Source: the human T2T-CHM13v2.0 reference genome, Homo sapiens. Taken from it: a stretch of DNA of 64,000 nt. Where the stretch lies: NCBI GenBank assembly GCA_009914755.4, contig CP068257.2:40832001-40896000 (forward strand). Direction: 5' to 3'. The position numbers and the translations under genes were made by a program. Positions 34,442 to 35,159 of the stretch are shown in pieces (position 1 is the first letter of the stretch; each line of letters opens with the position of its first letter). Under the pieces are notes generated by a model. That model searched no databases. It worked only from the letters and a program-made list of their open reading frames with translations, and was not told where the DNA came from.

Positions 34442-35005
34442 TCCCACAGCCCAAAGGCGCCCACACCCTCCATCCCACAGCCTGGGGATGCCCCACACCC
34501 TCTGTCCCACAGCCCGGGGGATGCCCCACACCCTCTGTCCCACAGCCCGGGGGTGCCCCACACCCTCTGCCCCCTCCACCCCACAGCCCGGGGATGCCCC
34601 ACACCCTCTGCCCCCTCCACTCCACAGCCCGGGGATGCCCCACACCCTCTGCCCCCTCCACCCCACAGCCCGGGGATGCCCCACACCCTCTGTCCCACAG
34701 CCCGGGGGTGCCCCACACCCTCTGCCCCCTCCACCCCACAGCCCGGGGATGCCCCACACCCTCTGACCCCTCCACTCCACAGCCCGGGGGTGCCCCACAC
34801 CCTCTGCCCCCTCCACCCCACAGCCCGGGGGTGCCCCACACCCTCTGCCCCCTCCACCCCACAGCCCGGGGATGCCCCACACCCTCTGACCCCTCCACCC
34901 CACAGCCCGGGGGTGCCCCACACCCTCTGACCCCTCCACTCCACAGCCCGGGGATGCCCCACACCCTCTGCCCCCTCCACCCCACAGCCCGGGGGTGCCC
35001 CACAC
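34442..35005. repeat. Minisatellite/VNTR with ~14 units of ~42 bp (some 33-bp variants) in RSPH1 intron 7, starting at the exon-7 donor. Unit on + strand: cccacagcccgggg(g/a)tgccccacaccctctg(c/a)cccctccac.
   Basis: The tandem units are visible by eye. They explain the long artefactual Pro/Gly/Trp-rich ORFs on both strands (34128-35119). Confidence 0.9.
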
Positions 35006-35159
35006 TCTCAGCTCCTGGAGCGTCTTGGCCAGGTCCATCCGTAGAGGTCGGCTTTTTGGGGAGAGTTGGTGTCCACAGGGCCAATTCAGTGATTTGGGTA
35101 GCTTTCCATTTTGGAACAACAGTTACTAATTCTTCCTCCTCTTCCTCTTCTCCTCTTTC
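35006..35159 (-). CDS. RSPH1: RSPH1 exon 7 ([51 protein letters not shown]+S), acidic linker
   Basis: Acceptor cttaaaatag|GAAAGAGG with an in-frame TAG just upstream, and donor GAGA|gtgtgggg. 154 nt. The donor abuts a 42-bp VNTR. Confidence 0.85.

What the first reader, a model, noticed from the sequence alone, without database searches (positions are those of the whole stretch)
34442..35010. ~42-bp VNTR (about 14 units) starting exactly at the RSPH1 exon-7 splice donor. Every unit carries a donor-like GGGTGTGGGG.
On the RSPH1 strand exon 7 ends ...GCTGAGA|gtgtggggcaccccc. The same gtgtggggcaycccc motif recurs every ~42 bp for ~560 bp into intron 7. The authentic donor is therefore simply the first copy in an array of near-identical cryptic donors (AGGGTGTGGGG versus the authentic GAGAGTGTGGGG). 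Repeat-number variation or single-base changes here could shift splicing and extend the acidic/Pro-rich linker in frame or out of frame. It is also a likely site of length polymorphism. RSPH1 splice mutations cause primary ciliary dyskinesia, so cryptic-donor architecture next to a coding exon is worth noting. The long Pro/Gly/Trp-rich ORFs on both strands are artefacts of this repeat.
Basis: seen in the sequence. Interest (0 to 1): 0.6.

Follow-up and report, generated by a model that had tools for sequence, protein, structure and literature searches.

The report
Splice-donor-repeating minisatellite in RSPH1 intron 7
A 41-bp minisatellite starts in the last bases of RSPH1 exon 7, so the real splice donor is followed by 14 look-alike donors; this layout is already known from F7, CBS and IFI6, where the extra copies are normally silent or little used, and it matters mainly for interpreting donor-site variants in this primary ciliary dyskinesia gene.

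Summary
On the minus strand, a unique GT-AG chain of nine exons reproduces the 309-aa RSPH1 protein exactly. Exon 7 (35159-35006) ends at c.727 with ...GCTGAGA|GTGTGGGG. A 41-bp tandem array (34460-35009 by TRF; ten 41-nt, two 32-nt and one 33-nt spacings) begins 4-7 nt inside the exon. It repeats the donor 14 more times as AGG|GTGTGG(G/C). The motif occurs 15 times in the window against 0.14 expected.

The copies match the authentic donor at +1 to +8 and are better at -1 (G instead of A). The authentic donor is the weakest of RSPH1's eight donors. Using the copies would cause frameshifts with stop codons in exon 8 (nine copies) or stop-free in-frame insertions of 41-169 aa (five copies).

This is a known architecture. 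F7 IVS7, CBS IVS13, IFI6, LMNB2 and PDGFA have boundary-spanning minisatellites. In F7 minigenes the most upstream site was used exclusively, even against improved downstream copies (PMC1557585).

Two non-primate contigs have a single-copy junction with stronger donors, so the array is lineage-specific.

RSPH1 is a new, apparently undescribed member of a known kind. Length polymorphism and actual use of the extra donors could not be tested.

The parts
35006..35159 (-). RSPH1 exon 7 (154 nt, codons 192-242 plus the first base of codon 243; last base = c.727)
   Evidence: A unique GT-AG exon chain reproduces the 309-aa protein. CDS position 727 confirmed.
35125..35159 (-). Purine-rich GAR tract at the 5' end of exon 7 (encodes [11 protein letters not shown]); looks like an exonic splicing enhancer
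   Evidence: Sequence, TRF row 35131-35155, translation. The enhancer role is inferred.
35000..35008 (-). Authentic exon 7 donor, AGA|GTGTGG (copy 1 of the array); G(+1) at 35005
   Evidence: It is the weakest of the eight RSPH1 donors (approx. PWM 2.45 bits).
34445..35009 (-). 41-bp minisatellite, consensus on the RSPH1 strand GTGTGGGGCAYCCCCGGGCTGTGGGGTGGAGGGGKCAGAGG. About 13 units plus a degenerate end; 63 G-runs; 13 canonical G4 motifs
   Evidence: TRF 34460-35009, unit dissection, G-run/G4 counts. The degenerate last unit was read from the sequence.
34959..34967 (-). Pseudo-donor copy 2, AGG|GTGTGG (c.727+42): +41 nt, frameshift, stop at codon 278
34918..34926 (-). Pseudo-donor copy 3 (c.727+83): +82 nt, frameshift, stop at codon 288
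34877..34885 (-). Pseudo-donor copy 4 (c.727+124): +123 nt, in frame, +41 aa
34836..34844 (-). Pseudo-donor copy 5 (+164 nt, frameshift)
34795..34803 (-). Pseudo-donor copy 6 (+205 nt, frameshift)
34754..34762 (-). Pseudo-donor copy 7 (+246 nt, in frame, +82 aa)
34713..34721 (-). Pseudo-donor copy 8 (+287 nt, frameshift)
34681..34689 (-). Pseudo-donor copy 9 (+319 nt, frameshift)
34640..34648 (-). Pseudo-donor copy 10 (+360 nt, in frame, +120 aa)
34599..34607 (-). Pseudo-donor copy 11 (+401 nt, frameshift)
34558..34566 (-). Pseudo-donor copy 12 (+442 nt, frameshift)
34526..34534 (-). Pseudo-donor copy 13 (+474 nt, in frame, +158 aa)
34493..34501 (-). Pseudo-donor copy 14 (+507 nt, in frame, +169 aa)
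34461..34469 (-). Pseudo-donor copy 15 in the degenerate terminal unit (AGG|GTGTGGGC; +539 nt, frameshift)
33558..35005 (-). RSPH1 intron 7 (1448 nt); the array fills its first ~560 nt
33408..33557 (-). RSPH1 exon 8 (150 nt; acceptor ...ttatctcag|GTGCAGG). It holds the stop codons reached after out-of-frame use of a pseudo-donor

Best explanation
This is a lineage-specific, GC-rich minisatellite made by tandem amplification of the ancestral exon 7/intron 7 junction segment of RSPH1. Its first monomer holds the last 4-7 nt of exon 7 and the authentic donor. Every later monomer is a complete pseudo-donor. The canonical mRNA uses only the first, most upstream copy, even though that copy is the weakest. 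The most likely reason is position: the first donor reached after the exon is committed first, through exon definition (helped by the purine-rich 5' part of exon 7) and the 5'-to-3' 'oriented scanning' rule shown experimentally for the equivalent F7 array. The G-runs may add to this, acting as enhancers when downstream of a donor and as silencers once inside an extended exon. The expected consequence: a variant that disables copy 1 shifts splicing to copy 2 (c.727+42), possibly with some exon 7 skipping. Copy 2 adds 41 nt, shifts the frame and gives a stop at codon 278, 84 nt before the last exon junction, so NMD or truncation and loss of function. Shown here: the anatomy, the gene model, the relative donor quality, the coding outcomes and the absence of the array in two other mammals. 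Inferred: the silence of the copies, the selection mechanism and the polymorphism.
For: Array and motif statistics. Gene model: a single GT-AG chain gives the exact 309-aa protein through copy 1. The exon-side sequence GCTGAGA is unique to copy 1, so the canonical mRNA can only come from copy 1. Donor quality: the copies equal the authentic site at +1 to +8 and have consensus G at -1 where the authentic site has A (approx. PWM 5.6 versus 2.45 bits). The exon 7 donor is the weakest of the eight. Read in register with the U1 5' end, the copies give 5 contiguous pairs (-2 to +3) and the authentic site gives 3. Predicted RNA accessibility does not favour copy 1 (0.004 versus 0.004-0.05), so position rather than structure is the distinguishing property. 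[quoted passage not shown] Origin: non-primate contigs L001 and L002 have single-copy junctions, GAGG|GTGAGGGGC and CGG|GTACGGTGCCCCGGGCTGT, with no tandem repeat. All non-catarrhine orthologues retrieved have Gly at codon 243, meaning -1 G. Coding outcomes. G-runs: 63 in the array, none in exon 7. G-runs can act as either enhancers or silencers (PMC3606458).
Against: No transcript data could be consulted, so the silence of the 14 copies is inferred from the canonical protein and from F7. In CBS and IFI6 the first two pseudo-sites are used constitutively alongside the authentic one (PMC1557585 introduction), and in RSPH1 the copies are intrinsically better donors, so some leakage is plausible. 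Out-of-frame products would be hidden by NMD. The 'copies are stronger' claim rests on one position and on a PWM built from recalled frequencies. A free-register U1 duplex energy did not separate the two (-5.6 versus -5.2 kcal/mol). For F7 the authors excluded intronic auxiliary elements, which weakens the G-run part of the mechanism. A Colobus automatic gene model does splice from inside the second copy.
Confidence: 0.75

Rival explanations
1. Leaky array: because the downstream copies are better donors than the decayed first copy, copies 2-4 are used at appreciable levels, as in CBS and IFI6. This would give NMD-targeted +41/+82-nt transcripts that lower RSPH1 output, plus a primate-specific +41-aa isoform. 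Unit number or unit SNPs would modulate that leak.
For: Copies score higher than the authentic donor. Copy 4 gives a stop-free in-frame 41-aa insert, and extended exons of 195-277 nt are still a normal exon size. CBS and IFI6 use two pseudo-sites constitutively. A Colobus RSPH1 model contains ...[23 protein letters not shown].
Against: In F7, copies improved to consensus value 91 were never used. No protein with the insert exists among 5.8 billion sequences except that one automatic model, which also skips exon 8 and does not splice at the GTGTGG donor itself. The insert would be a Gly/Trp/Arg/Cys-rich peptide within the protein's acidic C-terminal part.
Confidence: 0.2
2. Functional G-run enhancer: the array is kept because its dense G-runs (hnRNP H/F sites, possibly RNA G-quadruplexes) directly downstream of a very weak donor are needed for that donor to be recognised. 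The reiterated donors would be a by-product.
For: 63 runs of G>=3 in 546 nt, against none in exon 7 and 3.2 per 100 nt in the rest of the intron. 13 of the 25 canonical G4 motifs on this strand of the 64-kb window lie in the array. The donor is the weakest in the gene. G-runs are documented as intronic enhancers and as dual enhancer/silencers (abstracts; PMC3606458).
Against: Two other mammals manage without any array, although with stronger donors. The same G-runs flank every pseudo-donor. In the analogous F7 array, intronic auxiliary elements were experimentally excluded. Nothing here tests protein binding.
Confidence: 0.25
3. DNA-level element: the array acts as a cluster of 14 CACCC (KLF/SP-type) boxes, or as a G4/R-loop-forming non-template strand, and so works as an intronic transcriptional regulator. 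Its resemblance to splice donors would be incidental.
For: The reverse complement of the pseudo-donor 9-mer is CCACACCCT, an exact CACCC box. It occurs 14 times, only in the array, against 0.84 expected. The strand is strongly G-skewed: 55.5% G on the sense strand.
Against: This is a motif match only, with no binding, chromatin or expression data. GC-rich minisatellites often contain such motifs by composition. It does not explain why the array starts inside the exon.
Confidence: 0.1

Closest known systems
F7 (coagulation factor VII) IVS7 37-bp VNTR (Borensztajn et al. 2006, PMC1557585)
   Same: A minisatellite of similar unit size (37 versus 41 bp), also at an exon 7/intron 7 junction. The first monomer includes the last ~4 nt of the exon. 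The G-rich non-consensus donor (TGG/gtgggt versus AGA/gtgtgg) is repeated in every monomer. The canonical mRNA uses only the first copy.
   Different: F7 has 5-9 copies that are strictly identical. RSPH1 has 15 donor copies in this sequence, and the authentic copy is worse than the others at -1. That makes it a natural version of the engineered 'improved pseudo-site' constructs. F7 polymorphism and pseudo-site competence are experimentally shown. Neither is shown for RSPH1.
CBS IVS13 31-bp VNTR (Yang 2000 and Lievers 2001, as cited in PMC1557585)
   Same: The VNTR sits on the exon/intron border, has 15-20 monomers (a similar copy number), and each monomer carries a donor. From my own knowledge, CBS is also on 21q22.3.
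   Different: In CBS, two pseudo-sites are used in addition to the authentic donor, and allele length is reported to be associated with enzyme activity. No such data exist for RSPH1.
IFI6 (interferon-inducible 6-16) intron 2 minisatellite (Turri 1995, as cited in PMC1557585)
   Same: The authentic donor is followed by many (25) reiterated pseudo-donors.
   Different: [quoted passage not shown] In RSPH1, use of either of the two nearest copies (+41 or +82 nt) would shift the frame.
LMNB2 100-bp and PDGFA 81-bp boundary-reiterating repeats (as cited in PMC1557585)
   Same: The exon/intron junction is reiterated through the intron, and only the authentic site is used.
   Different: The units are much longer, so pseudo-sites are further apart.
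Intronic G-run splicing enhancers / hnRNP H-F sites
   Same: Dense GGG/GGGG runs start at +5 of a weak donor.
   Different: Here the G-runs are part of a tandem array that also carries competing donors. Dependence on hnRNP H/F is untested.

Membership tests
Exon-intron-boundary minisatellite with reiterated splice donor (F7 IVS7 / CBS IVS13 / IFI6 / LMNB2 / PDGFA type) | Tandem array of minisatellite-size units lying directly downstream of a coding exon | tested here: met
   TRF period 41, score 788, 34460-35009. Exon 7 ends at 35006.
Exon-intron-boundary minisatellite with reiterated splice donor (F7 IVS7 / CBS IVS13 / IFI6 / LMNB2 / PDGFA type) | The first monomer spans the exon-intron junction (contains the last exon bases) | tested here: met
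   TRF boundary at 35009 is 4 nt inside the exon. GCTGAGA versus GCAGAGG matches at 5 of 7 positions; further upstream the match is no better than about 40%.
Exon-intron-boundary minisatellite with reiterated splice donor (F7 IVS7 / CBS IVS13 / IFI6 / LMNB2 / PDGFA type) | The donor sequence is reiterated in every monomer | tested here: met
   14 copies of AGG|GTGTGG(G/C), identical to the authentic AGA|GTGTGGGG at +1 to +8 (13 copies) or +1 to +7 (one copy).
Exon-intron-boundary minisatellite with reiterated splice donor (F7 IVS7 / CBS IVS13 / IFI6 / LMNB2 / PDGFA type) | The canonical mRNA is made from the most upstream copy | tested here: met
   Only copy 1 joined to exon 8 reproduces the 309-aa protein.
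Exon-intron-boundary minisatellite with reiterated splice donor (F7 IVS7 / CBS IVS13 / IFI6 / LMNB2 / PDGFA type) | Downstream copies are silent or minor in normal transcripts, and the next copy is activated when the first is mutated | not testable with these tools
   No transcript data or minigenes are available. The only hint is one automatic Colobus model.
Exon-intron-boundary minisatellite with reiterated splice donor (F7 IVS7 / CBS IVS13 / IFI6 / LMNB2 / PDGFA type) | Copy-number polymorphism in the population (a true VNTR) | not testable with these tools
   Scans of metagenome and genome contigs for the unit found nothing. Catalogue supplements were not held or did not list RSPH1.
G-run intronic splicing enhancer | Runs of G>=3 within the first ~100 nt downstream of a weak or intermediate donor | tested here: met
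   11.5 G-runs per 100 nt, starting at +5. The donor is the weakest in the gene.
G-run intronic splicing enhancer | Splicing of the upstream exon depends on the G-runs or on hnRNP H/F | not testable with these tools
   Needs minigene or CLIP data.
G-quadruplex-forming minisatellite | Canonical (G3+N1-7)x4 motifs on one strand | tested here: met
   13 non-overlapping motifs in the array, out of 25 on the whole minus strand and 3 on the plus strand. Actual folding was not tested.
PRDM9-motif recombination-hotspot minisatellite | Presence of CCNCCNTNNCCNC in the units | tested here: not met
   9 matches in the window, none inside 34445-35009.

The most novel reading that the evidence does not exclude
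RSPH1 may be a natural 'weak first donor versus 14 stronger copies' competition that is not fully won by the first site. Tissue- or allele-dependent leakage to copies 2-4 would then lower RSPH1 output through NMD and produce a catarrhine-specific +41-aa isoform. Array length, unit SNPs, or gene conversion between copy 1 and copy 2 (predicted signature: c.727A>G, p.Ser243Gly, which restores the ancestral stronger donor) would act as hidden hypomorphic or modifier alleles in primary ciliary dyskinesia.
Probability: 0.15. Interest if true: 0.55.

Novelty: new member of a known kind. Interest (0 to 1): 0.35.

Why it matters
There are two practical points.

First, RSPH1 is a primary ciliary dyskinesia gene. 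By the F7 rule, any variant that weakens c.727-3 to c.727+6 is predicted not simply to skip exon 7 but to move splicing 41 nt downstream. That gives a frameshift with a stop at codon 278. The prediction is specific enough to test by RT-PCR when classifying variants. Short-read alignment and splice predictors may both behave poorly in a 41-bp array.

Second, the locus is a natural counterpart of the engineered F7 constructs: the chosen donor is intrinsically worse than 14 downstream copies. Junction counts at this one locus would therefore test, in vivo, how far position overrides donor strength in human 5' splice-site choice.

The finding does not reveal a new mechanism.

Tried and rejected
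- **Literature on RSPH1.** No held paper links RSPH1 to a VNTR, tandem repeat or cryptic donor. The hits were RSPH10B2, funding text or unrelated mentions.
- **Recalled variant.** I recalled a PCD variant c.727+5G>A (Knowles et al. 2014). It could not be verified: the paper is not held and text searches found nothing. I use it only as an unverified lead.
- **Independent copies of the locus (allele lengths).** Exact-pattern scans of metagenome and genome contigs returned 0.
- **VNTR/splicing catalogues.** No supplement is held for PMC10078293, and RSPH1 is absent from the one file held for the Garg preprint.
- **RNA structure masking of the copies.** Local unpaired probabilities do not favour the authentic site, so I rejected this as an explanation. 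The F7 authors reached the same result.
- **U1 duplex energy.** The free-register calculation does not discriminate between the sites, so I did not use it as evidence.
- **Shapiro-Senapathy consensus values.** I could not reproduce them by calibrating on the F7 numbers, which are not additive under my recalled table. I report only a log-odds PWM and label it approximate.
- **PRDM9 hotspot motif.** None in the array.
- **Known RNA families.** None in 30-40 kb.
- **Protein-coding reading of the repeat ORFs.** Rejected. There are no homologues other than a read-through gene model.

Full report

Yes. Tandem Repeats Finder reports a period-41 array at 34539-35009 (11.7 copies, 91% matches, score 788). 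A second, overlapping row covers its distal, shorter-unit part at 34460-34769.

Read on the minus strand, GTGTGGGG occurs 14 times. The G(+1) positions are 35005, 34964, 34923, 34882, 34841, 34800, 34759, 34718, 34686, 34645, 34604, 34563, 34531 and 34498. A degenerate GTGTGGGC follows at 34466. Spacings are 41 nt (ten), 32 nt (two, where a 9-nt block GTGGAGGGG is missing) and 33 nt (one).

The 11-mer AGRGTGTGGGG has 15 matches in the window against 0.14 expected from dinucleotide-preserving shuffles. Fourteen of them are in the array.

The unit consensus on the RSPH1 strand is GTGTGGGGCAYCCCCGGGCTGTGGGGTGGAGGGGKCAGAGG. The end nearest the exon is homogeneous and the far end (34445-34530) is degenerate.

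**2. Gene and splice-site assignment**

tblastn placed it on the minus strand as nine collinear blocks. An exhaustive search of GT/AG boundaries around those blocks found exactly one exon chain whose translation equals the 309-aa sequence:

| Exon | Window coordinates (minus strand) |
|---|---|
| 1 | 53903-53850 |
| 2 | 50796-50683 |
| 3 | 50580-50475 |
| 4 | 44179-44089 |
| 5 | 43522-43387 |
| 6 | 40426-40355 |
| 7 | 35159-35006 |
| 8 | 33557-33408 |
| 9 | 30381-30329 (stop) |

The window thus validates the recalled sequence.

Exon lengths sum to 727 at the end of exon 7 and place the start of exon 4 at c.275. That agrees with the published description of c.275-2A>C as an exon 4 acceptor variant of NM_080860 (PMC4049301). 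The same paper confirms that RSPH1 nonsense and splice variants cause primary ciliary dyskinesia.

Exon 7 ends ...GCT GAG A and exon 8 begins GT GCA GGA GAA, so the junction codon A|GT is Ser243. The only GT-AG solution puts the donor at 35005/35004 and the acceptor ...ttatctcag| before 33557. Intron 7 is 1448 nt, and the array fills its first ~560 nt.

**3. Relation of the array to the junction**

The last seven exon bases (GCTGAGA) align with the 3' end of each unit (GCAGAGG or TCAGAGG). The TRF boundary (35009) lies 4 nt inside the exon. Further upstream the similarity is no better than about 40%. So the first monomer spans the exon-intron boundary, and the authentic donor is copy 1 of the array.

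**4. How good are the donors?**

The copies are AGG|GTGTGG and the authentic site is AGA|GTGTGG. They are identical from +1 to +8 and differ only at -1, where the copies have the consensus G.

I scored them with a log-odds matrix built from recalled human donor frequencies. It is approximate, but the ranking depends on a single, very well established position.

| Site | Approx. PWM score |
|---|---|
| Authentic exon 7 donor | 2.45 bits |
| Each repeat copy | 5.6 bits |
| The other seven RSPH1 donors | 4.1-10.5 bits |

The exon 7 donor is therefore the weakest in the gene.

Read in register against the U1 snRNA 5' end (established knowledge), the copies form five contiguous pairs (-2 to +3) and the authentic site forms three. 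A free-register duplex energy did not separate the two, so I do not rely on it. Predicted local accessibility does not favour the authentic site: P(unpaired) is 0.004 versus 0.004-0.05.

**5. What would use of the copies do?**

- **Copy 2 (c.727+42)** adds 41 nt, shifts the frame and gives a stop at codon 278.
- **Copy 3** adds 82 nt and gives a stop at codon 288.
- **All nine out-of-frame copies** reach stops in exon 8, 84 or 95 nt upstream of the last exon junction. By the usual 50-55-nt rule this is NMD-type.
- **Copies 4, 7, 10, 13 and 14** are in frame and free of stops. They would insert 41, 82, 120, 158 or 169 residues of Gly/Val/Pro/Arg/Trp-rich peptide into the acidic C-terminal part of the protein.
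- **Exon 7 skipping** would also shift the frame (154 nt; stop at codon 213).

The array is open in all three sense frames and has long antisense ORFs. A search of 5.8 billion proteins, using a query that contained one full 123-nt period (and so all three frames of the unit), found nothing carrying repeat peptide except one automatic Colobus RSPH1 model.

**6. Origin**

The orthologues returned (marmoset, Aotus, vole, rhinoceros, deer) have Gly at codon 243 (...GAEG...). The ancestral exon end was therefore GAGG|GT, which is the form kept by the repeat copies. Human and Colobus have Ser, meaning A at -1.

Two contigs from unidentified non-primate mammals that encode exon 7 read-through ORFs show single-copy junctions with no tandem repeat:

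- L001: GAGG|GTGAGGGGC...
- L002/L003: CGG|GTACGGTGCCCCGGGCTGT...

Both are recognisably related to the human unit. The L001 donor (AGG|GTGAGG) is much closer to consensus.

The Colobus model implies at least two copies in an Old World monkey.

My inference is that the ancestral junction segment was amplified in the primate lineage. The +4 A>T change, which weakens the donor, is shared by all copies and so pre-dates or accompanied the amplification. The -1 G>A change is private to copy 1.

**7. What is known**

This architecture is an established class. Borensztajn et al. (PMC1557585) describe the F7 IVS7 37-bp VNTR, whose first monomer is the last 4 bp of exon 7 plus 33 bp of intron. They list similar arrays in IFI6/6-16 (25 pseudo-sites, the first two used), CBS IVS13 (15-20 monomers, two pseudo-sites used), LMNB2 and PDGFA (only the authentic site used).

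In about 50 F7 minigene constructs they found that:

- the pseudo-sites are functional but silent;
- copies improved to consensus value 82-91 still do not compete, and only a perfect consensus does;
- inactivating the authentic site activates copy 2, and progressive inactivation of further copies increases exon skipping;
- secondary structure and intronic auxiliary elements do not explain the choice.

RSPH1 (old symbol TSGA2) is not mentioned there, nor in any held paper that pairs RSPH1 with a VNTR or tandem repeat.

**8. Most likely mechanism**

The array is a lineage-specific boundary-spanning minisatellite. Copy 1 is chosen because of its position: it is the first donor after an exon whose 5' part is a purine-rich GAR tract (35125-35159), combined with the 5'-to-3' preference shown for F7. 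It is chosen in spite of being the weakest copy.

The 63 G-runs of the array (exon 7 has none) may reinforce this. G-runs can act as enhancers or silencers depending on context (PMC3606458): they lie downstream of copy 1, but would lie inside any extended exon. The F7 data argue against a need for such elements, so I rank this as a secondary, unproven contribution.

The prediction is that damage to copy 1 yields the +41-nt frameshifted mRNA, possibly with some exon 7 skipping.

**9. Rivals**

- **(a) Leaky use of copies 2-4, as in CBS/IFI6.** Plausible because the copies are better donors, but unsupported by any protein record.
- **(b) The array as a required G-run enhancer or G4 element.**
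- **(c) A DNA-level element.** The reverse complement of the pseudo-donor 9-mer is CCACACCCT, an exact CACCC/KLF-type box. It occurs 14 times, only here, against 0.84 expected. This rests on a motif match alone.

The PRDM9 13-mer is absent from the array, and no Rfam family matches in 30-40 kb.

**10. What could not be done**

Length polymorphism and junction usage are the two decisive facts, and neither was reachable. Scans for independent copies returned nothing. The VNTR catalogues' supplements were unavailable or silent. My recollection of a PCD variant c.727+5G>A is consistent with the exon ending at c.727, but I could not verify it.

**11. Verdict**

But experimental precedent tempers that speculation: it predicts that the copies are silent or little used, and that only lesions of copy 1 matter.

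RSPH1 is a new, apparently undescribed member of a known kind. Two features are mildly notable: the chosen donor is intrinsically weaker than its 14 copies, and the gene is a disease gene. Interest is modest (0.35).

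Noticed in passing
window 46706-47150: A ~445-bp GTTG/GCTG-rich tandem repeat (TRF periods 12-76, 71-75% matches) lies inside RSPH1 intron 3, between exon 3 (ends 50475) and exon 4 (starts 44179).
   Followed up: no
window 992-1395: A 201-bp unit is duplicated in tandem (2.0 copies, 94% identical), far downstream of the RSPH1 3' end. 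It contains a CTG run and C-rich tracts.
   Followed up: no
window 32274-32348: A perfect tandem duplication of a 38-bp unit (100% identical) lies in RSPH1 intron 8.
   Followed up: no
window 31762-31772 (minus strand): An isolated exact copy of the authentic-type 11-mer AGAGTGTGGGG lies in intron 8. It is the only match outside the array.
   Followed up: no
window 34461-34967 (plus strand): The reverse complement of every pseudo-donor is the CACCC-box 9-mer CCACACCCT. It occurs 14 times, all inside the array, against 0.84 expected. The authentic donor copy reads CCACACTCT and lacks it.
   Followed up: partly
P0002 (Aotus) and P0005 (Colobus) RSPH1 models; window ~43363-43390: Both primate database models contain ...[13 protein letters not shown]..., which is the translation of read-through past the exon 5 donor seen in the window. 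So these automatic models retain intron sequence at more than one RSPH1 junction and should not be taken as isoform evidence.
   Followed up: partly
window 7805, 22186, 59188 and six other sites: The PRDM9-type 13-mer CCNCCNTNNCCNC is enriched in the window (9 matches versus 2.8 expected) but absent from the minisatellite. Several matches (CCGCCTTGGCCTC, CCACCTTGGCCTC) look like Alu sequence, though that is from memory and was not checked.
   Followed up: no
L001 (SRR22354918) and L002/L003 (SRR17497122/SRR17497121): Logan contigs from unidentified mammals carry RSPH1 exon 7 with a single-copy intron 7 start. L002 shares the core CCCCGGGCTGT with the human unit, which shows what the array was amplified from. 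The species were not identified.
   Followed up: partly
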